In this document: positions 24,182 to 41,680 of the stretch, in pieces
Layout: every line of letters begins with the position of its first letter
Position numbering within the stretch: the stretch's first letter is position 1
From: a virus
Lineage: Duplodnaviria; Caudoviricetes
DNA length: 47,920 bases
IMG/VR virus record: IMGVR_UViG_3300038974_000756
Coordinates: 1 to 47,920 of that record
Strand: one strand, 5' to 3'
Notes under the pieces: generated by a model
Seen by the model: only the letters and a program-made list of their open reading frames with translations
The model's database searches: none
Told to the model about the DNA's origin: nothing
Made by a program: the position numbers and the translations under genes

Positions 24182-25384
24182 ATGAATTACGTGAAAATAG
24201 AAGGCAAATATAATATCATAAAAGTGTATGCAACAGAAATTGAAAAAGGGGCTATAAAAGACCTTTCTACTATAGCAAATTCTAGCTCCTTTGAAAACTC
24301 AAAGGTCAGAATAATGCCCGATGTACATCAAGGTGTTATAGCCCCTATAGGTTTTACCTCCACTTTAACAGACAAAGTCGTTCCAGCAATTGTTGGCGTA
24401 GATATCGGATGCGGTGTTTTGTCGTTGCACGTAGATGACGAAGTTGATCTCCAAGCACTTGATGATTATGCTCGTGAACATATACCAACAGGGCATGATA
24501 TTCATCAAGAACCTCAAAGAGCCTATGAGGAATTGCGCCAGAACATTGAAAAAACATGCAAGCGTACAGGGCAGGATCCTAATTATGTGCTGCGTTCGCT
24601 AGGCACCCTTGGTGGGGGAAACCACTTTATTGAATGTGGGAAAAGCGAAAAAAGTGGGTATTGGATTACTGTGCATACAGGTTCACGAAACTTCGGTTTA
24701 AGAATAGCTAAATACCACCAATCAGTTGCTGAGAAAGAGGCTAACAAAGTCTCTGTAGAATCTATCAAGCAAGCATATATGGACGAACTTGGACCTTCTG
24801 GAGTATTTGATGGCGAAGAGCTTGGTCGTCGTATTCGCAACAAGGAAAAAGTAGCTCGTGGATTAGAGTATCTCACCGGCGATAGCTTGCAAGACTACGT
24901 TACAGATATGAAGGTAGCACAAGCGTATGCCTCGTTAAACAGGCGGAATATATTGATGAGCATTATTGATCACTTCGGATTTACAGTAACGAATGCGATC
25001 GAATCGGTGCATAACTACATCGATTTCCGCTATGGTATTATTCGCAAAGGAGCTATTTCCGCCCAAGAAGGAGAGCGTGTTGTTATTCCTCTGAACATGC
25101 GGGATGGACTTATTATCGGAGTAGGAAAAGGTAATGAAGAATGGAATTACTCGGCTCCTCACGGAGCTGGAAGAAAGATGTCTCGCTCGTCTGCTAAGAT
25201 GTCCCTTTCGTTAGATGATTTCCAAGAGCAGATGAAGGGGATTGTATCATCGTCAGTTTGTGCATCAACGTTGGATGAGGCTCCGGGGGCGTACAAAGAT
25301 GCGGATGAAATTTTAGGCTATCTAAAAGACACTGTGGATATTGTAGAGCGAGTAATGCCCCTTTGGAACTTCAAAGCGGTGTAG
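24182..25384 (+). CDS. rtcB: RNA ligase RtcB
   Basis: MPDVH, VGVDIGCG, GTLGGGNHFIE, VHTGSR, HNY, RKGA, SAPHGAGR, DEAPGAYK. Confidence 0.95.
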   Translation: MNYVKIEGKYNIIKVYATEIEKGAIKDLSTIANSSSFENSKVRIMPDVHQGVIAPIGFTSTLTDKVVPAIVGVDIGCGVLSLHVDDEVDLQALDDYAREHIPTGHDIHQEPQRAYEELRQNIEKTCKRTGQDPNYVLRSLGTLGGGNHFIECGKSEKSGYWITVHTGSRNFGLRIAKYHQSVAEKEANKVSVESIKQAYMDELGPSGVFDGEELGRRIRNKEKVARGLEYLTGDSLQDYVTDMKVAQAYASLNRRNILMSIIDHFGFTVTNAIESVHNYIDFRYGIIRKGAISAQEGERVVIPLNMRDGLIIGVGKGNEEWNYSAPHGAGRKMSRSSAKMSLSLDDFQEQMKGIVSSSVCASTLDEAPGAYKDADEILGYLKDTVDIVERVMPLWNFKAV

Positions 25385-27773: not shown

Positions 27774-27974
27774 AAAGTTTTTTAAAAAAGAATATTCTTC
27801 TTATATTATAATTGTAAGGAGGTTGCCTACGACGGTTGCAGAGTTAATTAAATTGTTAGAAGCAATTGAGAATAAAGAAGCTGAAGTAACGTGCTCAGAT
27901 GGCATCTATAGATGGTCAGCGGAAGGAGTCACGTACAAGGAAATTGGGGAAGGAATTGTAGAGATAGGTTGATA

Positions 27975-28047
27975 GGGGCATATACGGTATTTCGACGGAT
28001 TGAAGAAGGCTTCGATCCACACCTGGGTTCGACTCCCAGATGCTCCA
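27975..28047 (+). ncRNA. tmRNA tRNA-like domain only (mini-tmRNA)
   Basis: GGGGCAT/ATGCTCC-A acceptor with G3.U70, tmRNA-type D-loop ACGGTATTTCGAC, 9-bp P2-like helix capped by AAGG, T-arm CTGGG-TTCGACT-CCCAG. Confidence 0.8.
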
Positions 28048-28269: not shown

Positions 28270-28276
28270 AACAATC

Positions 28277-28654: not shown

Positions 28655-28664
28655 TTTTCTTTTT

Positions 28665-28757
28665 GGAAGGTTGGCTGAGTCTGGATAAAAAGCGCGCCGC
28701 TTGAAACGGTGAGTTCGGGTAGCCCCCGGGCCGTGGGTTCGAATCCTACACCTTCCG
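28665..28757 (+). tRNA. tRNA-Ser(TGA)
   Basis: GGAAGGT/ACCTTCC-G; CGCCG-CTTGAAA-CGGTG; long variable arm; TTCGAAT T-loop. Confidence 0.95.
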
Positions 28758-29100
28758 TACAGGTTTTTATCACTTTCTTCCCAACCAAAGAAAGCGAGGT
28801 TAGATAGTTGATTCCATAAACACTGCCCAGTCATATCCAGGACCAACGATATGCGTATGAGTGATACGTCAAATCCCACTCCGGTCCATGGTGGCGCCAC
28901 CTGCTACGTTCTGTAGCTGAGACCGTTATTTTTATGAATCAACGGTAAGCTTATTCCTTACCTTCCTCTTCCCGTAGAGGAAAAAGCGGGGGTCTAGAGA
29001 GATCTTCCAGAAGAAACCTCCCAGTAGTGAGCTGCGTCAACATCACTCGTAATACGGTGACGAAAGATCCGTCGGCCTTGCGCGCGCAGGGCTGTTATTT

Positions 29101-29174
29101 GGGCCATTAGCTCAGTTGGTAGAGCGCCTGTTTTGCAAGCAGGATGTCGTGGGTTCGACCCCCACATGTGTCCA
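29101..29174 (+). tRNA. tRNA-Ala(TGC) with 1-nt acceptor bulge
   Basis: CCTGT-TTTGCAA-GCAGG; G3.U; acceptor GGGCCAT/ATG(T)GTCC. Confidence 0.85.
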
Positions 29175-29312
29175 CAAGGTTCTGCTGGGATGGTAGAACC
29201 GAAATCCATGACGTCTAAAGCGCTTTCGTGCATGGTGTGCTTTCTGGTCGCTGCAGGAACCAGCGCTTGCTGAGCGTGATCAGCCGGGGGTGATGCATCG
29301 CCCCTATTATTT

Positions 29313-29396
29313 GCCAGTGTCGCATAGAGGACGAGTGCGACGGTCCTGTAAACCGTACCTGAAAGGGCATCGTAGGTTCGAATCCTACCACTGGCT
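29313..29396 (+). tRNA. tRNA-Thr(TGT)-like with C33 and long variable arm (could be scored as Tyr)
   Basis: GCCAGTG/CACTGGC-T; ACGGT-CCTGTAA-ACCGT; CCT-GAAA-GGG variable arm. Confidence 0.75.
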
Positions 29397-29400
29397 TTTT

Positions 29401-29539
29401 GTACTAGTGACTCCGCAAGAACTAGACCATTCTTGCAAGTAGCTTCTGACTAAGTGTTCTGCAGAACGCCTTTGGAGCATCTTGCTACCAAGGGTGAGCC
29501 TTGGATAGCGAGAAAGGGTTCGATTCCCTAGCTAGTACA
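29401..29539 (+). ncRNA. Oversized tRNA-like RNA (139 nt)
   Basis: GTACTAG/CTAGTAC-A acceptor, AGGG-TTCGATT-CCCT T-arm, three enlarged arms, no anticodon loop. Confidence 0.6.
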
Positions 29540-29545
29540 TCTTTC

Positions 29546-29626
29546 GGGGCCATCAGATGGTTCTCACAATAGCGAAAGCCTACAACGGACCGCTGTTGTT
29601 TCTGGGTTCGATTCCCAGTGGTTCCA
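29546..29626 (+). ncRNA. Second tmRNA-TLD-like RNA
   Basis: GGGGCCA/TGGTTCC-A (G3.U), unpaired D region ending GGTTCTC, ACAATAGCG/CGCTGTTGT helix, CTGGG-TTCGATT-CCCAG T-arm. Confidence 0.6.
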
Positions 29627-29743
29627 ATGAGACACAAACAACCACCTGAGCAGTGGGATGGAAACTCATAATTGCATCTACTCAACAGAAATAAAACTGC
29701 GATGCTGAAAGATGGGTGACAGCTTGGAGAGACAGGCAAACTG

Positions 29744-29814
29744 CGGAAAGTGAGAAAATGGTATTCTGCGGCGTTTGGGGCGCTGTCGTGTAGGTTCGAT
29801 TCCTACCTTTCCGA
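29744..29814 (+). tRNA. tRNA-Pro(TGG)
   Basis: CGGAAAG/CTTTCCG-A; CGGCG-TTTGGGG-CGCTG. Confidence 0.9.
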
Positions 29815-30123
29815 AGAATTAGGTACGTGGTAGCTCTGTTTCTGGTGAAACATACGGCAAACGGCTTTTGAATGCACTCTCGCCTCCCGGCAGATCGCGA
29901 CTGCAACAGCTTTTAGCTGGGGAAAGATACGTGAGCCACGAAGCTGTCTAACTCGAGCACGGGCAGTAGAAAACCTAGTTTGGAAGCGAGGCTGCAGACG
30001 TCATAGCAGCAAAGCGGGGTGTCCCAGTAGGCGGGTTAACGCGGGTTCGAATCCCGACTCCTTGCAAAGGTGGTGAGATGCCATCCTCCTAGTCGTAGGA
30101 CGCTTCCTTTATTTTGTAATCAT

Positions 30124-30195
30124 CGCAGAGAGATGGACAAGCGACATAAGTGTCTCATAAGCACTTTGTACCCGAGGCAGTATCGGGCTCTGCTA
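30124..30195 (+). tRNA. tRNA-Met(CAT), initiator-like 1:72 mismatch, non-canonical T-loop
   Basis: CGCAGAG/CTCTGCT-A; AGTGT-CTCATAA-GCACT; CCCGA-GGCAGTA-TCGGG. Confidence 0.75.
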
Positions 30196-30317
30196 GAATG
30201 TTAAGCATCTCGGCTCTTTTGTGTAGGTTAGCTACCCACAGAGCTGTCCTGGATGCTTGCCGACAGTAAGTCCTGTCTAAGAGATGACGTCCTCCGACAG
30301 CAGGCAAACGGTTTTGA

Positions 30318-30439
30318 AAGATGCACACAGCAAATTAAACACCTCTGGGAGGTAGAGACAGAGGTTCGATTCCTCTAGGCGGTAGCAATGTTCGCATTGT
30401 CGACTTGGTGTAGTGGTAGCACGCTTATAAATGCATCTT
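30318..30439 (+). ncRNA. YrlA-like RNA 1 (ACAGCAA stem + permuted tRNA mimic)
   Basis: AAGATGCA/TGCATCTT closing stem, CACAGCAA, T-arm AGAGG-TTCGATT-CCTCT, then UUCG-capped acceptor-like helix, then D-arm GTGT-AGTGGTA-GCAC. Confidence 0.75.
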
Positions 30440-30519
30440 GTTTTATTTGTCTTTGGCCTATGAACTATCGTTCGTGGGTTTGGGGTTGCCATCGAACCAG
30501 CCTATGCAAATCGGCGGGT

Positions 30520-30621
30520 GGGATTGTGGTCGAGAGGTTTATGACTGACGCAAGCTAAGGCGGGGTGTGGTGCCTGCGACCAATACACCAAGCCACGCAG
30601 GTTCGAATCCTGCCTTCTCTA
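30520..30621 (+). pseudogene. Degenerate type II tRNA (Ser-GCT-like)
   Basis: D-arm GTC-GAGAGGTTTAT-GAC and T-arm GCAGG-TTCGAAT-CCTGC, but poorly paired acceptor and anticodon arms. Confidence 0.45.
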
Positions 30622-30804
30622 AAGGGTGTACATTGGCAGCAAAAGGTAAGCAATGTATGTCGAAACGGAAGAGAGAAAGCTTTCGCCCAGCTTAATTTGT
30701 GGAGGTTGCAAGATGGAGTATTTTGCTGCTTTTACGCTGAGCGGAGTATTACTCGCAGTAGTAATCACGTGGCTGCGATGTAAACTCGACTAGGAGGAAG
30801 GAAA

Positions 30805-31419
30805 ATGTATATTATCGATAGGAATAGAGATTTCTATGATCATTTTTCTCACATATACGGTGTAGACAAAAACATCGTATTCGATCGACGTGGTTCAGAG
30901 ATATTAACCGATAGCAGACTGGCTTGGATAGCAGGTCACCCGTATGCGCGTCGAGATACATATTTCATACTGCTGGAAGCTGGTAACACGCAATATGTTA
31001 TGCGCGTAGCGGATATTCAGGAGGGTGCTTACTGCGATTTCAAATCGTTTACATTATCTCTGGAGAGGACATTCGCAGAGAATAGAAACTTCTTTGGTTC
31101 TCCGTTGAGTATTCACAGAGTAGACGGTAGGAGAGCATGGGCTGCGGAGTATCGTAAGCTTTTGCGGAAAAATTATATTCCTCAGTCTATTGAAGAGGTC
31201 ATTAGATTGGTAGAGAAGGATCATACGAGTGTATATCTTCCTATTCTCAAGAATACGTCGCTTACTAAGTTTCTTGATCCGTTTGAGCTGTGGAAGGCAA
31301 TCAACACGTATATATCCTCTCTTGGTAATGATAAAGATGTAAGCCTTCACATGAGTGAGGAAGACAAAGCTGCTATACACGGCTTTGATAGGCACTCGTT
31401 TAGGCATCCTACTAAATAG
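30805..31419 (+). CDS. Conserved hypothetical phage protein
   Basis: MYIIDRNRDFYD...HGFDRHSFRHP; AGGAGG RBS. Confidence 0.7.
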   Translation: MYIIDRNRDFYDHFSHIYGVDKNIVFDRRGSEILTDSRLAWIAGHPYARRDTYFILLEAGNTQYVMRVADIQEGAYCDFKSFTLSLERTFAENRNFFGSPLSIHRVDGRRAWAAEYRKLLRKNYIPQSIEEVIRLVEKDHTSVYLPILKNTSLTKFLDPFELWKAINTYISSLGNDKDVSLHMSEEDKAAIHGFDRHSFRHPTK

Positions 31420-31421
31420 CT

Positions 31422-31889
31422 ATGGAACAACAAGTATACATGGATTTAGCAGAGTACGTTGCAGGTGGGAAGCCTCTAGAGATATCACAGGAGCTTATCT
31501 CGCTAGTGAAGAAGTATGGAGCATTTCGTAGATACTCCTATTTGTACCGTATATGGTTATCTGTAGATGCCGACAAGGTGCTGCAACATGCACAAGCTGG
31601 GAGATCGTTTGCTGTACAAAGAACTCATGCATGCACTAAAAGCTGGAAGGCTATTAAAGAAATGTATGAGGAAGAGGGCTACGAAGGATATCCCGTACTT
31701 GTTACGAAATATACTGATATCGTAGGCTTTGATCCAATGGAAGTGTTACGTAATGGTATACAGCTTGCTAGCAGTGAGGCCTCCTTTGTAAAGCGGGCTA
31801 TCATGATGCATGAGTTTCAGAAAGAAATATGTACAGTACAGCCCATTACTAAAATTCGCAAAGAAGACATTTATACAGTATTAAATTAA
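31422..31889 (+). CDS. Hypothetical protein
   Basis: 155-aa ORF 2 nt after previous stop. Confidence 0.6.
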   Translation: MEQQVYMDLAEYVAGGKPLEISQELISLVKKYGAFRRYSYLYRIWLSVDADKVLQHAQAGRSFAVQRTHACTKSWKAIKEMYEEEGYEGYPVLVTKYTDIVGFDPMEVLRNGIQLASSEASFVKRAIMMHEFQKEICTVQPITKIRKEDIYTVLN

Positions 31890-31894
31890 TAAGA

Positions 31895-32015
31895 AAGACA
31901 TCAACAGCAAATTAACACGGTGAAAAACGGCGCATGCAGGTTCAAATCCTGTCACTTCCTAACCCGAAGTGTGGTTTAATTGGGAAAACAGCTGTTCGTA
32001 TAAGAATGGTGTCTT
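31895..32015 (+). ncRNA. YrlA-like RNA 2 (ACAGCAA stem + permuted tRNA mimic)
   Basis: AAGACATC/GGTGTCTT stem, AACAGCAA, T-arm GCAGG-TTCAAAT-CCTGT, acceptor-like CACTTC-CTAACCC-GAAGTG, TG, D-arm GTTT-AATTGGGA-AAAC. Confidence 0.8.
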
Positions 32016-32023
32016 GTGGTTTT

Positions 32024-32098
32024 GGACTAGTAGTGCAATTGGCCAACACACCTCCCCTTCAAGGACGGAGATTGCGGGATCGTACCCCGCCTAGTCTA
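32024..32098 (+). tRNA. tRNA-Glu(TTC), C33, bulged anticodon stem
   Basis: GGACTAG/CTAGTCT-A; CCTCC-CCTTCAA-GGA(C)GG. Confidence 0.75.
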
Positions 32099-32101
32099 TT
32101 T

Positions 32102-32183
32102 ACAGCAGCAGCTCAATAGCCTGATCAGCTATGGGTGTCCAGGCGGTATCCTAGGAAATGAGGTTCGATTCCTTTGCTGCTGT
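32102..32183 (+). ncRNA. Atypical tRNA-like RNA
   Basis: ACAGCAGC/GCTGCTGT stem, extended D-like arm ATAGC/GCTAT, GAGG-TTCGATT-CCTT T-arm, no canonical anticodon loop. Confidence 0.55.
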
Positions 32184-32191
32184 TTATTTTT

Positions 32192-32264
32192 GGTTCCATA
32201 GTTTATTTGGTTAAAACACAAGATTGTCGATCTTGAGTGCGGGATTCGAACTCCCGTGGAACCG
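32192..32264 (+). tRNA. tRNA-Asp(GTC)
   Basis: GGTTCCA/TGGAACC-G; CAAGA-TTGTCGA-TCTTG. Confidence 0.9.
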
Positions 32265-32322
32265 CTTCTATTTTGTATGGTTGGCCGGGTCGGGTCGATG
32301 ACGATAGCCTTACAAATTATTT

Positions 32323-32394
32323 TGCCCAGTAGTTCAGCAGCGGAACGTGTGACTGTTAATCACAATGTCGGAGGGGCAGCACCTCCCTGGGCAG
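32323..32394 (+). tRNA. tRNA-Asn(GTT), non-canonical T-loop
   Basis: TGCCCAG/CTGGGCA-G; TGTGA-CTGTTAA-TCACA; GGAGG-GGCAGCA-CCTCC. Confidence 0.85.
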
Positions 32395-32445
32395 TTAAAC
32401 TCACGCTTTTCACAGACCACTGCTCGCCCTTTGTACATATTAAAT

Positions 32446-33201
32446 ATGAAGTGTAAGCATTGTGGAAAAGATATGAGACCTTGCAACTTAGTCAAGCACG
32501 AGAAAGTCTGCAAAAACAGAAGAAAAGAGGCAACTACCTCCTCGCTCAAGTTTGAACAAGTAGATAATAAATTTAAATGCCCTGTATGTGGAAGTCTGCG
32601 TTCTAAGCAAGGCATAAAAAATCACTATTGGAGATCTCACACAGAAGAAGGGAGAGAATTTGTGATGGCGCAGGCTATGAAACGCAAGCCCTCTAATCAA
32701 TACATAAAAGCAGCGGAGCTTAGCCTTCCTCCTCCTCGCTTGACAGAGTCTGCACGTAAAAAGATTTCTCTTCAAAATAAAAAAAGAACTCGCGAATGGC
32801 GTATTGAGAATGGTAAAAAAGTATCCGCAACAATTCATGAAAAAGTAGCTAGAGGAGAATGGCATACTTCCCTGGCCAAGAGAATGCACTATTCTTACAA
32901 TGGTGTGGATCTTCATGGAAAATGGGAACTTGCTTACGCGATGTTCCTAGATCGAAAAGAAATAACCTGGAAAAGATGTAAGGATAGGTTTGCCTACGAG
33001 TTCGAAGGAAAATCAAGATTTTACACGCCAGATTTTTACCTACCCAAAACAAAGGAATATGTAGAAATCAAGGGATATAAAACAAAAAAAGATGAAGCCA
33101 AGTGGTCACAATTTCCTCATACTCTGCTGGTGTTAAGAGGAAGAGAGCTAAAGCTGTTGCTAGCTGAATTTGAAGATTTAAATAGCATGGTCAAGCTTTA
33201 A
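32446..33201 (+). CDS. Zinc-finger PD-(D/E)XK endonuclease (homing-type)
   Basis: CKHCGK and CPVCG..H...H zinc fingers; HGKWELAY...YTPDFYL...YVEIKGY. Confidence 0.8.
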   Translation: MKCKHCGKDMRPCNLVKHEKVCKNRRKEATTSSLKFEQVDNKFKCPVCGSLRSKQGIKNHYWRSHTEEGREFVMAQAMKRKPSNQYIKAAELSLPPPRLTESARKKISLQNKKRTREWRIENGKKVSATIHEKVARGEWHTSLAKRMHYSYNGVDLHGKWELAYAMFLDRKEITWKRCKDRFAYEFEGKSRFYTPDFYLPKTKEYVEIKGYKTKKDEAKWSQFPHTLLVLRGRELKLLLAEFEDLNSMVKL

Positions 33202-33236
33202 GAAACGAATATAGAAAAGTTTTAAAACATAAAAAC

Positions 33237-33321
33237 GGGGAATGATCCTTGCGGGCGACTGTAAATCGCTTGACCTATATATGCAAGGTGGTGTCAGGTG
33301 ATTCGATTCCTCCATTCCCCA
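33237..33321 (+). tRNA. tRNA-Tyr(GTA), D-arm-less with long variable region
   Basis: GGGGAAT/ATTCCCC-A; GGCGA-CTGTAAA-TCGCT; only about 10 nt between acceptor and anticodon arm. Confidence 0.7.
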
Positions 33322-33329
33322 TAATACTT

Positions 33330-33401
33330 TGCGGGTTAGGCTAATTGGCAAACCATCTGCCTCTGGAGCAGATATTCTTCGTTCAAGTCGAAGCCCCGTA
33401 G
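33330..33401 (+). tRNA. tRNA-Gln(CTG)
   Basis: TCTGC-CTCTGGA-GCAGA; CTTCG-TTCAAGT-CGAAG. Confidence 0.85.
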
Positions 33402-33403
33402 TT

Positions 33404-33423
33404 AAGACATCGTTAGGTGTCTT
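33404..33423 (+). repeat. Stem-only copy of the YrlA-like RNA 2 closing helix
   Basis: AAGACATC-GTTA-GGTGTCTT; arms identical to 31895-31902 and 32008-32015. Confidence 0.55.
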
Positions 33424-33426
33424 CTT

Positions 33427-33497
33427 TGGCTTGTGGTGTAATGGTAGCACGAAAGTCTTTGGCACTTTATGCGGGAGTTCAAATCTCTCCAAGCCAG
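33427..33497 (+). tRNA. tRNA-Gln(TTG)
   Basis: TGGCTTG/CAAGCCA-G; AAAGT-CTTTGGC-ACTTT. Confidence 0.9.
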
Positions 33498-33507
33498 TCG
33501 TTATATT

Positions 33508-33578
33508 GGGTCTGTGGTGTAATGGTATCATAAGAAGCTCCAAACTCTTTGATCCCTGCTCGATCCGGGGTGGACCTG
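33508..33578 (+). tRNA. tRNA-Trp(CCA)
   Basis: GGGTCTG/TGGACCT-G; loop CTCCAAA. Confidence 0.8.
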
Positions 33579-33599
33579 TTCTTAAAAAGGAGACTTAAT

Positions 33600-33959
33600 A
33601 TGAGAGAGTTGACAGAAGAGGATAGGAAAAACATTGAAGAACTTATCACAAACAAAACTGTGGGCTGCGAGTTTCTTGTCACGCCTCTCAAATGGCCCCA
33701 GAGGTTAGTTATAACCGATGATCTGTTTAACGCCGAGAAAGAACATATTCTCATAGAGAGAGGGCAACGGCCGGCTATAGACCCCTATCATAGTGAAGAA
33801 GATGTTAAGCGTCTTGCTGGACCATATGTGGCTGTAGGGAACGTTTCCCCAAAAGACTTTTCTATCCTGGCTTTGGTTATGGCGCGAAAAAAGAGCTATA
33901 TCTTCGACTCTCGTGAAGGAGCATTTCAATGGATTATGAGTCCATTTAAGGAGAATTAA
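33600..33959 (+). CDS. Hypothetical protein
   Basis: AGGAG before ATG 33600. Confidence 0.6.
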   Translation: MRELTEEDRKNIEELITNKTVGCEFLVTPLKWPQRLVITDDLFNAEKEHILIERGQRPAIDPYHSEEDVKRLAGPYVAVGNVSPKDFSILALVMARKKSYIFDSREGAFQWIMSPFKEN

Positions 33960-33960
33960 T

Positions 33961-34170
33961 ATGCAAGAAATTGATGCAAGTAAATCAAGTAACATTGAAA
34001 AGATTTCGTATGATGGAGAACACATGAAAGTGTACTTCCGCAGTGGAGGAGTATATCAATATGAAGGCGTAGATGGTGATTTGTTTGGTAGATTCGCTGA
34101 TGCTGATTCATTTGGTAAGTTCTTCTTGCAAGAAATAAAAGGAAAGTTTCCTTTTAAACGATTGACATAA
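33961..34170 (+). CDS. KTSC domain protein
   Basis: SSNIEKISYD..VYFRSGGVYQYEGV....ADSFGKFF..IKG. Confidence 0.9.
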   Translation: MQEIDASKSSNIEKISYDGEHMKVYFRSGGVYQYEGVDGDLFGRFADADSFGKFFLQEIKGKFPFKRLT

Positions 34171-34174
34171 TTTT

Positions 34175-34245
34175 GGGCCGTTGGGAGAAAAGTTATCTAG
34201 TGGGCTCTTACCCCACCTAAGCAAGGGCAGTACTTGCACGGCTCT
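34175..34245 (+). tRNA. tRNA-Lys(CTT), non-canonical T-loop
   Basis: GGGCCGT/ACGGCTC-T; GTGGG-CTCTTAC-CCCAC; GCAAG-GGCAGTA-CTTGC. Confidence 0.85.
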
Positions 34246-34251
34246 CTTTTT

Positions 34252-34322
34252 GGACGGTTAGGAAAGAAGTTATCCATTGGGCTTTTAACCCAACGAGCTG
34301 GGGGCAGTACCCAGACCGTTCA
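34252..34322 (+). tRNA. tRNA-Lys(TTT), non-canonical T-loop
   Basis: GGACGGT/ACCGTTC-A; TTGGG-CTTTTAA-CCCAA; CTGGG-GGCAGTA-CCCAG. Confidence 0.85.
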
Positions 34323-34518
34323 TCTTTTTGGGAGTGAACCCAGCCGGTTGCAGGGACCAAGCTGATAACTTGGTATAGAATGGTGGTGGCTTTGATAGTG
34401 TCACATACTACGACAATAATGGAGTGAAGGATAGCACAGGAACCTTTATCACCTACCAAGGGCTGTTTGAAGTTGGCGAACGTGAGAACGGTGAGCCGTG
34501 CGGTGTGAAGGAGGAAGT

Positions 34519-34773
34519 ATGACTGAGATGATGAAGAGGTATGAGACGAAAGTTAAGGAATATATAAAAAAAGTAGTAGAAGATGACAGTTGCGGAATAT
34601 TCTGTCCGCCTACTGATGCACAGACAGGATTGAATGTATTAATTAATCACTTTCTTGGTGAGGATTGGTATGTAGTTAGTCCGGTGTCTCCAAAGCAGGT
34701 AAACACAGAAGCAATCTTAGAAATATTATATCGGTATCCAAAACCCAGAATTAGAAAGTGGTTTAAAAAATAG
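34519..34773 (+). CDS. Conserved small phage protein inside the tRNA-Ile insertion
   Basis: GIFCPPTDAQ...FLGEDWYVVSP..QVNTEA motif; GGAGG RBS. Confidence 0.65.
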   Translation: MTEMMKRYETKVKEYIKKVVEDDSCGIFCPPTDAQTGLNVLINHFLGEDWYVVSPVSPKQVNTEAILEILYRYPKPRIRKWFKK

Positions 34774-34961
34774 GAGAGGGCATGAAAAATCAGACACTAG
34801 AGCAGGTTCGGCAGAAATGCCTCAAGGCTTTCCAGATGGAACAAAGCCAAGTGGAAAGCCTTCTTGTGGAGGATCTATAAATACAGGATTTCGATGTATG
34901 AAATGTGGAAAACAATATCATCCTAAATCAAATAATAGCTCAGTAACAAAGGTAGATTAAA

Positions 34962-35159
34962 ATGAAATGCACATGGAAGAATTGTGAAAATGAAGGCATT
35001 GAAGACCAGGTAGGAAAAGATGGAAAAGTATGGGCTTGTCTCTGTGAAAAGCATAAAGAAGAATTTGATTCTGCCTTTAAAGAAGCAAATGCAAAAACAA
35101 TTTTAAGAGCCTGGGTTCTTGCCAATGGTGGTGCTGATGAACTCATGAAAAAAAGCTAG
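34962..35159 (+). CDS. Small zinc-binding hypothetical protein inside the insertion
   Basis: CTWKNC...CEKH. Confidence 0.5.
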   Translation: MKCTWKNCENEGIEDQVGKDGKVWACLCEKHKEEFDSAFKEANAKTILRAWVLANGGADELMKKS

Positions 35160-35257
35160 AAAATATGAAAGAGTCTATAATGTTCGACTCATTACACTCC
35201 TATTTGCCCTTTACACTTTTTTTGTTATATTATATGTGTAAGGAGAATTACCCGATT

Positions 35258-35590
35258 ATGATGTATAAAAAAGTTTTTTCTAGAGAAGAGATCGCCGGAT
35301 ACGAAAATCACTACAATCGCTGGCCAAAAGACATGAAAGAAATAACCCTCGACGAGTATTTTGCTCGCAAGAGTTTGTATTCCTGGCAATACGTTGATAG
35401 CAAACAACCCACAGAAAAGTTTGAAGGGATTTCATATTCTACTGCTCACCTCGAATTCGGAGAATGGTACGGAGAGGTATTTGGGAGCATCGCCGCTGAA
35501 ACACGAGAAGGAGAATGGAAGTTTTTTAAATTTGGAGATAGTTCAAAATTGGACAATTGGAGAATAGCTACTTTTGGTAAAGACGGTTGA
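35258..35590 (+). CDS. Hypothetical protein
   Basis: Promoter motif and AAGGAG upstream of ATG 35258. Confidence 0.55.
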   Translation: MMYKKVFSREEIAGYENHYNRWPKDMKEITLDEYFARKSLYSWQYVDSKQPTEKFEGISYSTAHLEFGEWYGEVFGSIAAETREGEWKFFKFGDSSKLDNWRIATFGKDG

Positions 35591-35598
35591 TATTTCTT

Positions 35599-35671
35599 GG
35601 TGGAATTGGCAGAGAAGTTATGCGCCAGACTGTGGATCTGGTTTAGATCGGGGCAGTACCGATATTTCACC
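35599..35671 (+). tRNA. tRNA-His(GTG) with encoded G-1, non-canonical T-loop
   Basis: G-GTGGAAT/ATTTCAC-C; CCAGA-CTGTGGA-TCTGG; ATCGG-GGCAGTA-CCGAT. Confidence 0.85.
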
Positions 35672-35688
35672 CTTTAAGAAGGTTTAAA

Positions 35689-36057
35689 ATGGAAAGGGAA
35701 TCTATTGCTGATGCGTATGAAAATACCGCTCATGTAACTCCAGGGACCACACAATTCGTAAAGTTTTCAAGCGGGGATGTTTGGAGAATTGCTGAAAACA
35801 AAAAGGATCTAGTAGTAATGGATGTGCTCGAGGAAAAAGAGAGCCTTACGTTTGATCTTGTGTTTTGGAAGCCCAAGGGAGAAAGCACCAACAGAATAAG
35901 CCTTTCTCCTGCAGATGGTGTTCTTCGCTTCGCTAGCGGTGCTGCGTGGAAAATCACAGAGACAGAAAATTCATACGATGTCTCTGAAATCACTCACGAG
36001 GATGTAGAGGGTAAAACGCAGATAGTGTTAAAGCCTCTGTTTAGTAAACAAAAATAG
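35689..36057 (+). CDS. Hypothetical protein with internal duplication
   Basis: KFSSGDVWRIAE / RFASGAAWKITE repeat. Confidence 0.6.
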   Translation: MERESIADAYENTAHVTPGTTQFVKFSSGDVWRIAENKKDLVVMDVLEEKESLTFDLVFWKPKGESTNRISLSPADGVLRFASGAAWKITETENSYDVSEITHEDVEGKTQIVLKPLFSKQK

Positions 36058-36090
36058 AAACTACGCTCGGTTAACTCAATTGGAAGTCAC

Positions 36091-36166
36091 CCAGCTGTTG
36101 CCTAGCGGCGAAGGCACCTCTTTTACACGGAGGCAATCACCGGAGGTTCGAGTCCTCCCAGCTGGA
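36091..36166 (+). tRNA. tRNA-Val(TAC)
   Basis: CCAGCTG/CAGCTGG-A; CCTCT-TTTACAC-GGAGG. Confidence 0.85.
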
Positions 36167-36219
36167 TATAACTCAGTTTAAGAGCAGCTGCCTCTATAGA
36201 GGTAGCTTACTAATTAATT

Positions 36220-36900
36220 ATGAGAAAACCACGAACTCGATATCGCAAAGAATGCCCCAAATGTGGTGACAGCATAGGAGCAGAGGGATTTAATAGACAC
36301 GTTAAATCTTGTGACGGCATTCCTAAAGCTAAAAAAGTTAAAGCTCTTCCTGGTCGGCCGGGACATAGACCGGGAAATAAAGTATTAAAGGCAAGGCGCT
36401 TAGGGCTACCAGAGCCTATTATGTCAGAGGAGACAAGAGCTAAAATAGGAGCAAGTAGTCGGGGTAGAAGGCATACCCTGGAATCTCGTCAAAAAATTTC
36501 TCTGGCTAGGGCCACACAAATAGAAGAAATGGGGGGAGACCGGGGAGGATTTCGGCAAGTTAAAAATTATCCTGTACTCAACAATCTTGGAGAGCTTTAC
36601 ATATGCAAAGGTATGTGGGAACGAGATGTGGCTGAGTGGCTAAATAATCAGGGTATTATATGGGTCCGAAAAATATACATCTCTTATATGCTTGATAGCG
36701 GTCCTAAAACATATATTCCTGATTTTTATATACCAGCAAAAAACCTCTATATAGAAGTAAAGGGCTATTTTGGGGATTATGACAAAAGAAAAATGAAGGC
36801 TGTGGTGGATCAATCAGGTATACATCTTAGCTATATTTTTCAAGAACAAATTAATGCTATTCGTAAAGGAAACTTTGATTTTGAAAGCCTATGCAAGTAG
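36220..36900 (+). CDS. NUMOD3-containing PD-(D/E)XK endonuclease (homing-type)
   Basis: CPKCG, SEETRAKIG..GRRHTLESRQKIS, KGMWERDVA, YIPDFYI...YIEVKGY; ACTAAT motif upstream. Confidence 0.8.
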   Translation: MRKPRTRYRKECPKCGDSIGAEGFNRHVKSCDGIPKAKKVKALPGRPGHRPGNKVLKARRLGLPEPIMSEETRAKIGASSRGRRHTLESRQKISLARATQIEEMGGDRGGFRQVKNYPVLNNLGELYICKGMWERDVAEWLNNQGIIWVRKIYISYMLDSGPKTYIPDFYIPAKNLYIEVKGYFGDYDKRKMKAVVDQSGIHLSYIFQEQINAIRKGNFDFESLCK

Positions 36901-36931
36901 GTTATCCGATGCGCTTTGGTAAAAAAGTAAT

Positions 36932-37004
36932 GGAAAGGTACATCAGTTGGTAGATGGGCACACTGAAAATGTGATGGGCGGCAGTTCGATTCTGCCCCTT
37001 TCCA
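36932..37004 (+). tRNA. tRNA-Phe(GAA)
   Basis: GGAAAGG/CCTTTCC-A; CACA-CTGAAAA-TGTG. Confidence 0.9.
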
Positions 37005-37227
37005 TAAGGAGGAAGCATTTGCGAAGTATGACAATTCAGATGATCTTCTAGACACCGTGAGACCTGCCCTTAGAGAGCAAGTAATCGAAGTGATTAAAGC
37101 AGCGGAGAAGGCTATGAATGGTGAGCCTATCGACCTTCCTGAGCTGGTTATTAATAGAATCCCTCAAGAGGCTATTGATAATTACTGGGAGGATGTGCTA
37201 AAGAAGCGCAGCATATAGTACAATCTT

Positions 37228-37298
37228 GCTGACTTAGTATAGTGGTAGTACGAGTTCCTAGTACGGACTAGGCACTAGTTCAATTCTAGTAGTTGGCT
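37228..37298 (+). tRNA. tRNA-Thr(AGT), A34
   Basis: GCTGACT/AGTTGGC-T; AGTTC-CTAGTAC-GGACT. Confidence 0.8.
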
Positions 37299-37311
37299 TA
37301 GGGAGGCATCA

Positions 37312-37593
37312 ATGAGTAGAAGCATAAAGAAATTTCCTGCAATAACCGACTGGTCAAAACACGAGACAAGAAAGCGTAAACGACGTGCCAGCAAAAAAGT
37401 ACGGCGTGCTGAGGACTTTGCTCTTGATGGCGGAAAATACAAACACGTTTTTTGCTCGTACGATATCTTCGATATTAAACAAGTGGAATTTGATTATAAA
37501 AAGACATTACGATGTAATCCTCGCTGGGATGAAGATGAAATCGATCCTCGCTTTTCTTTAGAGAAAAGTATGAGAAGGTGGAAACGGAAGTAG
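37312..37593 (+). CDS. Small basic conserved phage protein (MSRS family)
   Basis: MSRSIKKFP...KRRASKKVRR...YKHVFCSYDIFD; GGAGG RBS. Confidence 0.7.
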   Translation: MSRSIKKFPAITDWSKHETRKRKRRASKKVRRAEDFALDGGKYKHVFCSYDIFDIKQVEFDYKKTLRCNPRWDEDEIDPRFSLEKSMRRWKRK

Positions 37594-37615
37594 GGTTTTC
37601 TTATATTATAGGTAC

Positions 37616-37694
37616 GGCGCAGTATCACCCCCGCCTTCTAAGCGGTCGTCAATCGTGTAGTTGGAGTACGCTGGTTCGAATCCAGCCTGCGTCA
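37616..37694 (+). tRNA. tRNA-Arg(TCT), D-arm-less with long variable region
   Basis: GGCGCAG/CTGCGTC-A; CCGC-CTTCTAA-GCGG; GCTGG-TTCGAAT-CCAGC. Confidence 0.7.
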
Positions 37695-37700
37695 AGTAAA

Positions 37701-37773
37701 CAGCAGGTAACCAAGTGGTTAAGGTGGCTCTCTGCAAAGGAGTTTTTCGTGGGTTCGAATCCCTCCCTGTTGT
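37701..37773 (+). tRNA. tRNA-Cys(GCA)
   Basis: CAGCAGG/CCTGTTG-T (U73); GCTCT-CTGCAAA-GGAGT. Confidence 0.85.
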
Positions 37774-37944
37774 CTTATACTTAACAACGTGGATGCAACC
37801 GGCAAGTTGATAAAGCGTTGGGAAGCATCGTCCAGTGTTGCCGCACAAAAGCACGCTCTATTTGACATGGAGAAGAGGGGGTTTGGGCGTCCTGTCGCTT
37901 CGGTTGTAACCGACGAAGTGTAGTAGTGCTTCCGAGTTTTTTAT

Positions 37945-38020
37945 GCTCCGGAACTCAAGCTGGTTGCAAGGGCCTGCCTTATAAGCAGAGTTTAGGAAAG
38001 TTCGATTCTTTCACGGAGTA
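37945..38020 (+). tRNA. tRNA-Ile(TAT)
   Basis: GCTCCG/CGGAGT-A; CTGC-CTTATAA-GCAG; GAAAG-TTCGATT-CTTTC. Confidence 0.8.
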
Positions 38021-38164
38021 AATAATTAGTAATAGGGGCAACCTTCATAATATCAACGATAAAAAGTATCCTGCGTATAGCAGGATATCTTGCAGCCCTA
38101 TTAAATTTTACTGCAGGAATGGTTATATTAGTTGTAGCAGAAGTATTAGGGGTTATTGAGGAAA

Positions 38165-38581
38165 ATGTATAAGCTAACTACAGACAGAATAACAGAAGAA
38201 AACATTACCGCATTAAAGGACAACGAGGTGTTCGTTTTTGGCTCCAACGAGTCAGGACGTCACGGACTAGGAGCCGCAAAAACTGCTTTAAAGTGGGGAG
38301 CACAATATGGAGCAGCAGAGGGGTTGCAAGGACAGACCTATGCTATCCCCACCGTTGATAAATGGGTGAAGAACAAGCTCTCCCTTTCGGAAATAGCAGC
38401 TTATGTAGACTCCTTTTTGCAGTACGCCACACAACACAGCGAAAAGAATTTTCTCGTAACAGCAATAGGGACAGGACTGGCTGGATGGACAGTGCAGGAC
38501 ATAGCTCCTTTGTTTGAAGAAGCTATAATGATCGATAATGTTGCCCTGCCACAAAGCTTCTGGGATATTTTGCTAGCATAG
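38165..38581 (+). CDS. Macrodomain-like phage protein (VFVFGSN family)
   Basis: NEVFVFGSNESGRHGLGAA...GQTYAIPT...VTAIGTGLAG. Confidence 0.7.
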   Translation: MYKLTTDRITEENITALKDNEVFVFGSNESGRHGLGAAKTALKWGAQYGAAEGLQGQTYAIPTVDKWVKNKLSLSEIAAYVDSFLQYATQHSEKNFLVTAIGTGLAGWTVQDIAPLFEEAIMIDNVALPQSFWDILLA

Positions 38582-38643
38582 CTCAATGGTAGAGCAGCTG
38601 TTTCGTAAGCAGCCGGTTGTAGATTCGATTTCTACTGCTAGCT
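38572..38643 (+). tRNA. tRNA-Thr(CGT)
   Basis: GCTAGCA/TGCTAGC-T; GCTGT-TTCGTAA-GCAGC; overlaps upstream stop codon. Confidence 0.9.
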
Positions 38644-38649
38644 TATCTT

Positions 38650-38732
38650 GCTTCGGTGGTGGAATGGTATACACATCTGGTTTAAGCCCAGATGCCTGGA
38701 AGGGATTGAGAGTTCGAGTCTCTCCCGAAGCA
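38650..38732 (+). tRNA. tRNA-Leu(TAA)
   Basis: GCTTCGG/CCGAAGC-A; TCTGG-TTTAAGC-CCAGA; long variable arm. Confidence 0.95.
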
Positions 38733-38738
38733 AATATC

Positions 38739-38824
38739 GCTGCTGTGGCGTAATATAGGTAGACGCGCTGCTTTGAGGGGGCAGTGGCCATAGTGTCGTG
38801 GTGGTTCGAATCCACTCAGCAGCA
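38739..38824 (+). tRNA. tRNA-Leu(GAG)
   Basis: GCTGCTG/CAGCAGC-A; CTGCT-TTGAGGG-GGCAG; long variable arm. Confidence 0.9.
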
Positions 38825-38850
38825 AACACGCTTAGGTGTTGGAATTGGGT

Positions 38851-38903
38851 GGTCGAACCCCCCGAAAAAGGTGAACTAATTAGCTTAAGGGGAGGGTTCG
38901 ACT
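38851..38903 (+). promoter_or_regulatory. RBS-sequestering hairpin with internal ACTAAT late-promoter-like motif
   Basis: GGTCGAACCCCCC pairs with GGGGAGGGTTCGACT, covering the GGAGG of the endonuclease; ACTAAT at 38875. Confidence 0.65.
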
Positions 38904-38905
38904 CT

Positions 38906-39640
38906 ATGATATGTAAAGCTTGTGGAAAAGAATTTTTTGAGGATTGGAGAAGGGATAAGGGAACAAAAAGAAAGCAGCCAATACCCACATACTGCTCCAG
39001 GGCCTGTGCAAATAAAAGAGTGTTTTCTAAAGAGACTTACGAAAAGAGATCCAGGAGTTGCATAGAAGCTGCCGAGAAAAAGGCGGCGATAGAGGGACGT
39101 ACACTTAAAAGATATCAGAAAAAAAGAAAAAGAGAGAAATTTATTGATAGGAAGGTAATTTGTGCAATTTGTAAAAAAACCTTTGAGATTCCAAAAGGGA
39201 AACATAAAAGAGCAACTTGTAGCCCTGCTTGTCTGTCAGCTCTTTTATCCAAAAAATCCCGTGAAGGGCAAAGTACAAGAAGGCACTCAAGAAAAGATTT
39301 TAACTACAAAGGAGTAATTTTAAATTCTTCCTATGAGAAAAAAGTTGCTGAAGAATTGGACGAGAACAGAATCAAATGGACTCGACCACATCCCCTGGTG
39401 TGGGAAGATGCCGAAGGCGTAACCCATCGCTATTATCCCGATTTTTATCTTCCTGATTTTAATGTTTTTCTCGATCCTAAAAATGATTATCTTATTAATG
39501 GCATCAACTCTTGGTTTGGCATATCTGACAAAGAAAAAATTCAAATAGTCGAAAAACGGAATGGTGTTAAAATATTAATTCTTTCAAAGGAAAATCTTCT
39601 TTGGGAAAAGATTCAAAAAGTCATAAATGAGGCTCTGTAA
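38906..39640 (+). CDS. Zinc-finger PD-(D/E)XK endonuclease (homing-type)
   Basis: CKACGK..YCSRAC, CAICKK..TCSPAC; NSSYEKKVA...YYPDFYL...FLDPKN. Confidence 0.8.
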   Translation: MICKACGKEFFEDWRRDKGTKRKQPIPTYCSRACANKRVFSKETYEKRSRSCIEAAEKKAAIEGRTLKRYQKKRKREKFIDRKVICAICKKTFEIPKGKHKRATCSPACLSALLSKKSREGQSTRRHSRKDFNYKGVILNSSYEKKVAEELDENRIKWTRPHPLVWEDAEGVTHRYYPDFYLPDFNVFLDPKNDYLINGINSWFGISDKEKIQIVEKRNGVKILILSKENLLWEKIQKVINEAL

Positions 39641-39705
39641 TCCAATCTGGTAGAGATAGGCGCCCTAGAAGCGTTAAAGTGTCGGTTCGAATCCGACCAG
39701 AGCTA
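39631..39705 (+). tRNA. tRNA-Leu(TAG), short variable arm, C33
   Basis: GGCTCTG/CAGAGCT-A; GGCGC-CCTAGAA-GCGTT. Confidence 0.8.
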
Positions 39706-39712
39706 TAACAAC

Positions 39713-39787
39713 GCTCCTCTAGACCAATTGGTAGTAGTCAACAGTCCCAAACACTGTGTAGTCTGAGTTCAAATCTCAGGGGGAGTA
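39713..39787 (+). tRNA. tRNA-Leu(CAA), short variable arm, C33
   Basis: GCTCCTC/GGGGAGT-A; ACAGT-CCCAAAC-ACTGT. Confidence 0.75.
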
Positions 39788-39791
39788 TATC

Positions 39792-39863
39792 GACTCTATA
39801 GTCCAACGGATAGGGCACATCCCTCCTAAGGATGCAATGCAAGTTCGATTCTTGTTAGGGTCA
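39792..39863 (+). tRNA. tRNA-Arg(CCT)
   Basis: GACTCTA/TAGGGTC-A; CATCC-CTCCTAA-GGATG. Confidence 0.9.
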
Positions 39864-39865
39864 AC

Positions 39866-39937
39866 GGTCTCTTAGTTCAATGGATAGAACATAACCCTGC
39901 GGAGGTTAAAATACTAGTTCGACTCTAGTAGAGGCTA
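39866..39937 (+). tRNA. tRNA-Arg(GCG)
   Basis: GGTCTCT/AGAGGCT-A; TAACC-CTGCGGA-GGTTA. Confidence 0.9.
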
Positions 39938-39955
39938 ACTATATGGAGGAGTAAT

Positions 39956-40360
39956 ATGGAACAAGTGAAGCAGGTTATAATTATCAGACGCGATTTGAAG
40001 ATGAGACGTGGGAAAGAGATTGCTCAAGGAGCTCATGCTTCGATGAAAGTTATTTTCGATAGGCTGGAATATAAAAAAGACATAGACAATGGTAACACTG
40101 CTGTGTATCAGCTTAATGTATCCCAGGCAATAAGCTCTTGGATAGATGGAATATTCACCAAAGTAGTTGTGTATGTCAACTCCTTAGAAGAGCTTGAAGA
40201 GCTTGCCGCAGCAGCGGAAAAAGCAGGCATTCCCCATGCAGTAATTACTGATGTAGGTAATACAGAATTCCACGGAGTGCCTACTAAAACAGCGTTAGCT
40301 ATCGGACCTGACGATGCCGATATTATAGATGAAATCACTAGCCACTTGCCTTTGTATTAA
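39956..40360 (+). CDS. pth2: Peptidyl-tRNA hydrolase, Pth2 type
   Basis: KQVIIIRRDLKMRRGKEIAQGAHAS...KVVV...TDVGNTEF..TALAIGP...ITSHLPLY. Confidence 0.92.
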   Translation: MEQVKQVIIIRRDLKMRRGKEIAQGAHASMKVIFDRLEYKKDIDNGNTAVYQLNVSQAISSWIDGIFTKVVVYVNSLEELEELAAAAEKAGIPHAVITDVGNTEFHGVPTKTALAIGPDDADIIDEITSHLPLY

Positions 40361-40476
40361 ATGAGGAGAGAAACATGTCACGAGAACGGTACATTATAGC
40401 CTATCAAACGGATAGCAATTGAAATAAGCCACTTGCCGGGTGGAATCACAGAAAGTATTATGAATGCAAATTCTAC

Positions 40477-40854
40477 ATGGGCAAGCACCGAGAGAACACA
40501 TATCCAAACGGGCATATGGGGCTTATTTTCCAGGACAAGGGTGCGCGATATATCATACGTGTTAACACAGCTGTTCAGCGCATAGCGTATGAATACAATA
40601 TTTTTACGTATGATTCTTTTTGGAATCATTTTGTAGGGCTTGTGGAAGAGATGTCTCTTGTTCCTGTCGGGGTTAATGACATTGCCACTTCATATGCTCC
40701 TACAGTAGAAGCACTATCATGTATTATTGCTGACTACAATCTCGAGAAGGATTATAAAATAGACTGTAATTACTTGTACGACGAAGAGCATATCATAGAC
40801 AAAAAGAAATTTGTAGAATTTCTTGATGCGTGGATACAAGAACCTATAGTGTAA
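40477..40854 (+). CDS. Hypothetical protein
   Basis: 125-aa ORF; stop overlaps next tRNA. Confidence 0.5.
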   Translation: MGKHRENTYPNGHMGLIFQDKGARYIIRVNTAVQRIAYEYNIFTYDSFWNHFVGLVEEMSLVPVGVNDIATSYAPTVEALSCIIADYNLEKDYKIDCNYLYDEEHIIDKKKFVEFLDAWIQEPIV

Positions 40855-40911
40855 TGGAAAGCACACAAGTCTTCGAAACTTGTAGTAAACGTTCAAGTCG
40901 TTTTAGGTTCA
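40840..40911 (+). tRNA. tRNA-Arg(TCG)
   Basis: GAACCTA/TAGGTTC-A; CAAGT-CTTCGAA-ACTTG. Confidence 0.9.
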
Positions 40912-41403: not shown

Positions 41404-41487
41404 GGAATGAGCAATTGGCAAGGAGTCAAGTTGGTTTGCTAAACCAAACGTGTGTAACAGCATTGGGGTCGGAACCCAGCCATTCCG
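41404..41487 (+). tRNA. tRNA-Ser(GCT), atypical D/T loops
   Basis: GGAATG/CATTCC-G; TTGGT-TTGCTAA-ACCAA; long variable arm. Confidence 0.7.
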
Positions 41488-41664: not shown

Positions 41665-41680
41665 ACGTTATACTACTAGG

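What the first reader, a model, noticed from the sequence alone, without database searches (positions are those of the whole stretch)
27975..28047. 73-nt tmRNA consisting only of the tRNA-like domain
Seen: tmRNA-type 5' end GGGGCAT-ATACGGTATTTCGAC, G3.U70 and A73 alanine determinants and a canonical T-arm, but the P2-like helix GGATTGAAG/CTTCGATCC is closed by a 4-nt loop where the pseudoknots and tag ORF normally lie. Established: tmRNAs lacking the mRNA-like domain are known from some protist mitochondria, and the TLD binds SmpB and is alanylated. Inference: it could rescue stalled ribosomes without proteolytic tagging (peptidyl-RNA then cleaved by the phage Pth2) or sequester host SmpB.
Basis: partly seen in the sequence, partly recalled or inferred. 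Interest (0 to 1): 0.85.

Follow-up and report, generated by a model that had tools for sequence, protein, structure and literature searches.

The report
Phage tag-less mini-tmRNA, with diverged twin
This phage DNA holds a 73-base gene that is only the tRNA-like end of the bacterial ribosome-rescue RNA (tmRNA), with no tag message, plus a diverged second copy nearby; the type is known from one phage, is widespread in viral sequences, and likely lets the phage blunt the host's tagging of stalled proteins for destruction.

Summary
Window 27975-28047 is a tmRNA tRNA-like domain (G3·U70, A73, stemless D-loop, T-arm) whose P2 helix is capped by a 4-nt loop. Contigs from two other studies span it without gaps, so it is not an assembly collapse. 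It belongs to the CDS-less class published for mycobacteriophage DS6A. That class is large: about 460 viral stretches by one strict pattern, an undercount. With those positions left free, G3·U70 is kept in 94 of 95 relatives and the SmpB contacts G19 and A334 in 77 of 83 each. New here is a second paralogue at 29546-29626 that keeps alanine identity but has lost G19 and A334. Best reading (0.5): an alanine-charged, SmpB-bound competitor of host tmRNA that enters stalled ribosomes without tagging. Expression and activity are untested. This scan has noted the class on other genomes before.

The parts
27975..28047 (+). TLD-only (tag-less) tmRNA, copy 1: acceptor stem G3·U70/A73, D-loop with U17 C18 G19 A20 (E. 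coli numbering), 9-bp P2 capped by a 4-nt loop, linker keeping A334, T-arm; no CCA encoded; no inner hairpin
   Evidence: 30.5 bits RF00023; 35.2 bits on family model R1
29546..29626 (+). Second TLD-only paralogue (81 nt): G3·U70/A73 and the family's inner A-rich loop plus hairpin kept; G19 and A334 equivalents lost, so predicted not to bind SmpB normally
   Evidence: RF00023 E 0.0016; z -2.48; 45.9 bits on R1; 50% identical to copy 1
27823..27972 (+). 49-codon ORF (TTG start, preceded by AAGGAGG) whose stop codon ends 2 nt before copy 1; probably co-transcribed; no family match
   Evidence: sequence; no Pfam or PHROG hit
27781..27809 (+). Promoter-like site upstream of the ORF and copy 1 (9 of 12 consensus bases; weak)
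   Evidence: 9 sites found against 6.2 +/- 2.7 in shuffles, so not above chance
28664..41666 (+). Context: phage tRNA array that copy 1 precedes and copy 2 lies within
   Evidence: 22 tRNA genes by ARAGORN
39956..40360 (+). Context: peptidyl-tRNA hydrolase Pth2; possible but not dedicated partner
   Evidence: PF01981 E 1.8e-30; co-occurrence low
24182..25384 (+). Context: RtcB RNA ligase
   Evidence: PF01139 E 1.7e-57

Best explanation
It is a phage gene for a tmRNA that has only the tRNA-like domain, and its RNA likely acts as an alanine-charged, SmpB-bound competitor of the host tmRNA that would enter stalled ribosomes and take over the nascent chain without adding a degradation tag. Shown: the anatomy, the absence of any tag frame, membership of a large conserved class, and conservation of alanine and SmpB determinants. 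Inferred: host enzymes trim it and add CCA, host AlaRS charges it, and host SmpB and EF-Tu deliver it; after peptidyl transfer there is no message to resume on, so release falls to other factors (host Pth after drop-off, ArfA/ArfB-type factors, here possibly the phage Pth2). The inferred net effect is less SsrA tagging during infection.
For: Alanine identity: with the acceptor left free in the pattern, 94 of 95 unique relatives have G3·U70 and 95 of 95 have A73, while pairs 4-6 vary. SmpB contacts: with D-loop and linker left free, G19 in 77 of 83, A334 in 77 of 83, U17 in 70 of 83; these are the contacts named in PMC8363625 (passages), and copy 1 keeps all three. P2 is under structural selection: 415 of 445 anchored cells pair against 33-40% when slid. 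SmpB in 0 of 50 carriers and not in this contig, so the partner would be the host's. DS6A's RNA scores 58.9 bits on the same model and has the same CAC linker variant. A DS6A-like RNA inhibits endogenous tmRNA in E. coli (Mao 2009, as cited in PMC4131195 and PMC11915505; original not held). A TLD fragment plus SmpB makes polyalanine without mRNA in vitro (cited in PMC3929946), so a bare TLD can reach the peptidyl transferase centre. A prophage-driven switch from tmRNA to ArfA rescue is documented (PMC10107115, abstract only).
Against: No expression, charging or binding data for this RNA. Copy 1 is a weak family member: 35.2 bits, near the bottom of 101 matches, linker ACAC in 0 of 89 relatives, and no inner hairpin, which 63 of 89 have. 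The published inhibition did not need charging (PMC4131195), so ribosome entry is my inference from conservation. Three large phage records carry a full-length tmRNA as well as a mini form (G004; G054 and W01), which is awkward for a pure inhibitor. At least one phage depends on trans-translation for growth (PMC2862035). The contig is about 26% complete and the host is unknown.
Confidence: 0.5

Rival explanations
1. Off-ribosome decoy: the RNA only soaks up SmpB, or serves as bait for host defence nucleases or tmRNA-recognising proteins, and never accepts a peptide.
For: A DS6A-like molecule inhibits whether or not chargeable (PMC4131195). CoCoNuT systems have SmpB-like domains predicted to bind tmRNA (PMC11090510 passages). 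The contig holds RtcB and several other odd tRNA-like elements.
Against: A sponge need not keep G3·U70, yet 94 of 95 relatives do. Charging could still matter for stability or EF-Tu binding, so this is not decisive.
Confidence: 0.2
2. One reading: productive tag-free ribosome rescue, with the phage Pth2 as the dedicated releasing enzyme.
For: Pth2 is in the contig. CDS-less tmRNAs persist with SmpB in mitochondria and plastids (PMC11915505). Lambda-immP22 growth needs rescue more than the degron (PMC2862035). Jumbo phage W01 has Pth2, two short forms and a full tmRNA.
Against: Pth2 in 2 of 50 and Pth in 0 of 50 carriers, Pth2 in 1 of 26 that are at least 90% complete; 1 of 17 Pth2 phage records carries a TLD-only RNA. 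A tmRNA with a stop at the resume codon gives plating efficiency 1.3e-5 (PMC2862035). Host Pth could substitute, so tag-free rescue itself is not excluded.
Confidence: 0.15
3. Template-free alanine tailing: repeated rounds add a short alanine tail that itself acts as a degradation signal, making this the end point of tag shortening rather than an anti-tag device.
For: TLD plus SmpB makes polyalanine without mRNA (PMC3929946). Natural 2-residue Ala-Ala tags exist (PMC11915505). Alanine tails are added in Bacillus RQC (abstract start of PMC8373112 in listing).
Against: Only in vitro support; no obvious termination step; published in vivo effect is inhibition of tmRNA.
Confidence: 0.08
4. Acceptor half of a split tmRNA whose coding piece is a separate RNA, for example the RNA at about 28290-28580.
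For: An unassigned structured region downstream is covered by deep RNA contigs of related sequence (depth 235 and 46 in run X19). About 74% of the genome is unseen.
Against: P2 is closed by its own 9-bp stem. No duplex with 26600-34500 beats shuffles (25, 19 and 17 of 30 shuffles as good). No permuted-tmRNA match. No convincing tag frame there. The downstream RNA matched none of the fetched loci.
Confidence: 0.04
5. Decayed relic of a full tmRNA, an integration-site remnant or an assembly collapse.
For: Copy 1 departs from the family consensus at the linker; tmRNA genes are common integration sites.
Against: Gap-free in contigs of two other studies. Discrete size class: about 460 stretches at gap 20-50 against 21 at gap 51-81. 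Integrase in 5 of 50 records, none in this contig, nearest 3.3 kb from a mini gene.
Confidence: 0.03

Closest known systems
CDS-less ('TLD only') tmRNA of Mycobacterium phage DS6A (JN698994.1:28478-28557; PMC4131195, PMC11915505)
   Same: Standard gene order, G3·U70/A73 acceptor, stemless D-loop with CGAC, short closed P2, CAC linker, no tag; both score on model R1 (58.9 and 35.2 bits).
   Different: Copy 1 lacks the inner A-rich loop and hairpin that DS6A and most relatives have; it sits at the head of a large tRNA array; a second, diverged paralogue lies 1.5 kb away.
Standard one-piece tmRNA (SsrA, Rfam RF00023)
   Same: Acceptor stem, D-loop, P2a, connector and T-arm.
   Different: No pseudoknots, resume codon, tag frame or stop codon; 73 nt against about 350; 30.5 bits, below the gathering score of 47.
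CDS-less organellar tmRNAs (mitochondrial RF02544; ~65-bp Mallomonadaceae plastid genes, PMC11915505)
   Same: No tag frame; size close to the plastid form.
   Different: Phage-encoded and would act beside an intact host tmRNA rather than replace it; most mitochondrial genes are permuted.
Laboratory TLD construct of T. thermophilus tmRNA (5' 25 and 3' 34 residues joined by a UUCG loop; PDB 2CZJ, as described in PMC3929946)
   Same: Same design: TLD with P2 capped by a tetraloop.
   Different: Natural gene with a 9-bp P2 and AAGG loop.

Membership tests
Standard tmRNA (RF00023) | tRNA-like domain with G3·U70, A73, T-arm and stemless D-loop | tested here: met
Standard tmRNA (RF00023) | mRNA-like domain with tag frame and pseudoknots between the P2 strands | tested here: not met
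   4-nt loop only; 30.5 bits, under gathering score 47
Permuted two-piece tmRNA (RF04321) | acceptor piece before coding piece, joined by an intervening sequence | tested here: not met
   standard order; no RF04321 match in the contig
Mitochondrial tmRNA (RF02544) | match to the family model | tested here: inconclusive
   no match, but no control genome matched either
DS6A-type CDS-less phage tmRNA | little more than the TLD, no tag frame, in a phage genome | tested here: met
   (virus record)
DS6A-type CDS-less phage tmRNA | SmpB-contact bases U17, C18, G19, A334 (PMC8363625) | tested here: met
   copy 1 keeps all four; position 15 is U as in most of the family and G333 is C as in DS6A; copy 2 lacks U17, C18, G19 and A334
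Majority (~79-nt) subfamily of phage mini-tmRNAs | inner purine loop plus short hairpin inside P2 | tested here: not met
   absent from copy 1, present in copy 2 and in 63 of 89 relatives; copy 1 is not filed in this subfamily
DS6A-type CDS-less phage tmRNA | expressed, alanylated, binds SmpB, inhibits host tagging | not testable with these tools
   needs bench work; the RNA runs available were contigs only
Canonical tRNA-Ala | D-stem and 7-nt anticodon loop | tested here: not met
   not called by ARAGORN or RF00005; a separate tRNA-Ala(UGC) lies at 29101-29173

The most novel reading that the evidence does not exclude
The phage encodes a two-RNA toolkit of tag-less tmRNA mimics with divided labour. 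Copy 1 uses host SmpB to put untemplated alanine on stalled chains, while copy 2 keeps alanine charging but has swapped SmpB for another partner, defining an SmpB-independent subclass (look-alikes in L531 and in jumbo phage W01).
Probability: 0.15. Interest if true: 0.85.

Novelty: new member of a known kind. Interest (0 to 1): 0.52.

Why it matters
The papers I found treat the phage TLD-only tmRNA as a single case (DS6A). Here it is a conserved class of hundreds of viral genes, also present in Nostoc and Poribacteria assemblies, that ARAGORN misses. If they act as inferred, phages routinely tamper with bacterial ribosome rescue using an RNA. They also offer a simple way to test a standing question, what a tmRNA without a message does, which is open for mitochondria and plastids too. 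This phage supplies a natural pair that separates the SmpB contacts from the inner hairpin.

Tried and rejected
Expression: the three RNA runs laid (two samples) had no contig over 27859-28160 or 29520-29670. These are assembled contigs and a 73-nt RNA is easily lost, so this says nothing either way. Close relatives with a shared gene neighbourhood were not found: searches with four neighbouring proteins gave only 42-45% identity loci or none, so the test 'relatives carry a full tmRNA here' rests on near-identical strains. BLASTN of the 73 nt against phage records gave only partial T-arm-type matches. Relaxed ARAGORN tmRNA calls were many (20 and 124) and incoherent, and were treated as noise. 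The partner-RNA idea failed the duplex null, and the downstream RNA had no match in phage records or true homologue from a motif scan. The same pattern in bacterial genomes returned many evident chance matches in GC-rich DNA, so I give no count from it. The RF02544 search was uninformative. Mao et al. 2009 is not held and is cited only through later papers. The host was not identified.

Full report
Observation. CCA is not encoded. It folds this way at z -3.98, and the describing pattern had 0 hits in 300 resamples of the window. It is the best RF00023 match in the contig, at 30.5 bits against a gathering score of 47; ARAGORN and two Rfam scans did not list it. Contigs from two other studies span it without gaps. 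One differing letter in each of those contigs was not shown in the table, so I claim no indel, not identity.

Context. The window is a virus record of 47,920 bases, estimated 26% complete. It holds 22 ARAGORN tRNA genes from 28664 onward, RtcB, Pth2, RecA and dUTPase. A 49-codon ORF ends 2 nt before the RNA. No SmpB, permuted tmRNA, full tmRNA or tyrosine integrase was found in the contig. Runs that hold the DNA and were laid include bioreactor and landfill metagenomes. The host is unknown.

The class. A pattern for TLD-only RNAs returned 120 viral loci, with about 460 estimated in the collection; 119 of 120 matches have full acceptor and T stems although the pattern fixes only part of them. 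The next size window (gap 51-81) held 21 matches, 15 with full stems, so the short form is a discrete class. A second scan left the acceptor free: of 120 matches, 25 were duplicates, and of 95 unique ones 94 have G3·U70 and 95 have A73. A third scan left the D-loop and linker free: of 120 matches 18 were duplicates and 19 lacked a 7-bp acceptor; only 32 of the remaining 83 had TCGAC, so 460 is an undercount. I gave 97 of those 120 loci to the model; among 83 unique rows G19 is kept in 77, A334 in 77 and U17 in 70. In 89 representatives the first five P2 pairs form in 415 of 445 cells against 33-40% when slid. The model-fitted alignment agrees (97% paired, 0 of 500 shuffles) but leans towards the structure. 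The window RNA is at most 62% identical to any of 121 relatives. Similar genes occur in Nostoc and Poribacteria assemblies.

A second copy. The family model found 29546-29626 at 45.9 bits, above the finding itself at 35.2. The two are 50% alike. Copy 1 keeps the SmpB-contact bases and lacks the inner hairpin found in 63 of 89 relatives. Copy 2 has the hairpin and alanine identity but carries C at G19 and U at A334; G19 to C is reported to prevent SmpB binding (PMC8363625, passages). Only 1 of 83 relatives lacks both bases (L531), and the 75-nt copy in jumbo phage W01 looks similar. Two copies were seen in 2 of 50 carrier contigs. Copy 2 could also be decaying; in the landfill strain it has one change, in a loop, which is too little to decide.

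Partners. In 50 of the 52 carrier contigs of 30 kb or more that I had (the two shortest dropped), Pth2 was found in 2, Pth in 0, SmpB in 0 and a full-length tmRNA in 1. In 49 of them a tyrosine integrase was found in 5, none adjacent. Conversely, of 17 Pth2-bearing phage records chosen from 33 hits to avoid duplicates and near-duplicates, one carries TLD-only RNAs; the other matches were tRNAs. I had no matched control set, so a weak enrichment cannot be excluded, but Pth2 is not an obligate partner. Two more large phages carry a full tmRNA beside a short form. No pairing partner for either copy beat shuffles.

Mechanism. Shown: anatomy, class, conservation. Inferred: host processing, charging and SmpB binding, entry into stalled ribosomes, and alanine transfer without a tag. 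Support from print: a DS6A-like RNA inhibits tmRNA in E. coli, charged or not (Mao 2009, seen only as cited in PMC4131195, passages, and PMC11915505, parts 1 and 3 of 5 plus passages); TLD plus SmpB makes polyalanine without mRNA (PMC3929946, passages); a tmRNA that cannot resume translation fails the lambda-immP22 test (PMC2862035, passages). I put the competitor that enters ribosomes at 0.5, the off-ribosome decoy at 0.2, rescue with Pth2 at 0.15, alanine tailing at 0.08, a split tmRNA at 0.04 and relic or artefact at 0.03. Against the favoured reading: no expression data, copy 1 is a low-scoring member, charging was dispensable in the published test, and some phages keep a full tmRNA too.

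Relation to known things. It works like, and by the published description belongs with, the CDS-less tmRNA of DS6A, which sits at JN698994.1:28478-28557, is unannotated in that record and scores 58.9 bits on the model. It is not a standard or permuted tmRNA, nor a tRNA-Ala. Six literature searches showed no paper describing the class as widespread; the library lacks most subscription journals, and I did not open supplements, where the tmRNA database of PMC11915505 may list more short phage entries. Other papers seen as passages only: PMC3989591, PMC3968760, PMC1168896, PMC11090510, PMC11662646, PMC12656738 and bioRxiv 10.64898/2026.10.08.757657; PMC10107115 as abstract. E. coli numbering of the connector and the roles of RNase P and the CCA-adding enzyme are partly recalled.

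Earlier notes of this scan describe the same class on other genomes (323 findings share the words, 8 shown). None was found for this genome, for the downstream RNA or for a paralogue pair. They are unchecked and are not counted as support.

Verdict. Real; a new member of a known but barely described kind; interest 0.52. The paired, complementary paralogues are the part most worth following.

Noticed in passing
window 28278-28655 (+): Unassigned structured non-coding region closed by a terminal helix, with an inner ~280-nt part (28287-28577) covered by RNA-run contigs, at depth 235 and 46 for related sequences in one run against mostly under 35 nearby. No Rfam, phage-record or motif match. Whole-region fold z only -1.71.
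   Followed up: partly
window 28207-28268 (+): A 62-nt tRNA-like element with acceptor-like stem, short arm and T-arm but no anticodon arm and no alanine identity; z -4.68.
   Followed up: partly
window 29401-29538 (+): A multi-arm RNA closed by an 8-bp stem and ending in a T-arm; z -4.89; no family match.
   Followed up: partly
window 30041, 30360, 30597, 31936, 32159 (+; T-arm starts): Further T-arm-bearing elements not called as tRNAs at default settings; two share an ACAGCAAATTAA motif upstream.
   Followed up: no
window 42807-44297 (+): 496-aa DUF2828/DUF7788/VWA protein, PHROG 850 'RNA-binding protein'; a likeness to Ro/TROVE proteins is recalled, not tested. With RtcB it may form an RNA repair set.
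   Followed up: no
W01 (LR756511.1) 2250-2383, 247450-247524, 341278-341632: One jumbo phage carries a 134-nt intermediate form, a 75-nt form lacking the SmpB-contact bases and a full tmRNA, plus Pth2.
   Followed up: partly
L368-L388: Fifteen intermediate tag-less forms of about 92-123 nt with full stems, several with an AAAGCCC or AAGGCCC motif in a longer arm.
   Followed up: no
L534 (G040:C1:33102-33178): A second mini copy whose T-loop reads GGCAGUA instead of UUCRANY.
   Followed up: no
L246-L364 (genome contigs): Conserved 81-nt copies in many Nostocales and 82-85-nt copies in Poribacteria assemblies.
   Followed up: no
window 19678-21027 (-): IS605-type TnpB/Cas12f-like gene within the phage contig.
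   Followed up: no
window 29313-29396 (+): tRNA called Thr(UGU) with a long variable arm and an 8-nt anticodon loop, resembling a tRNA-Tyr frame.
   Followed up: no
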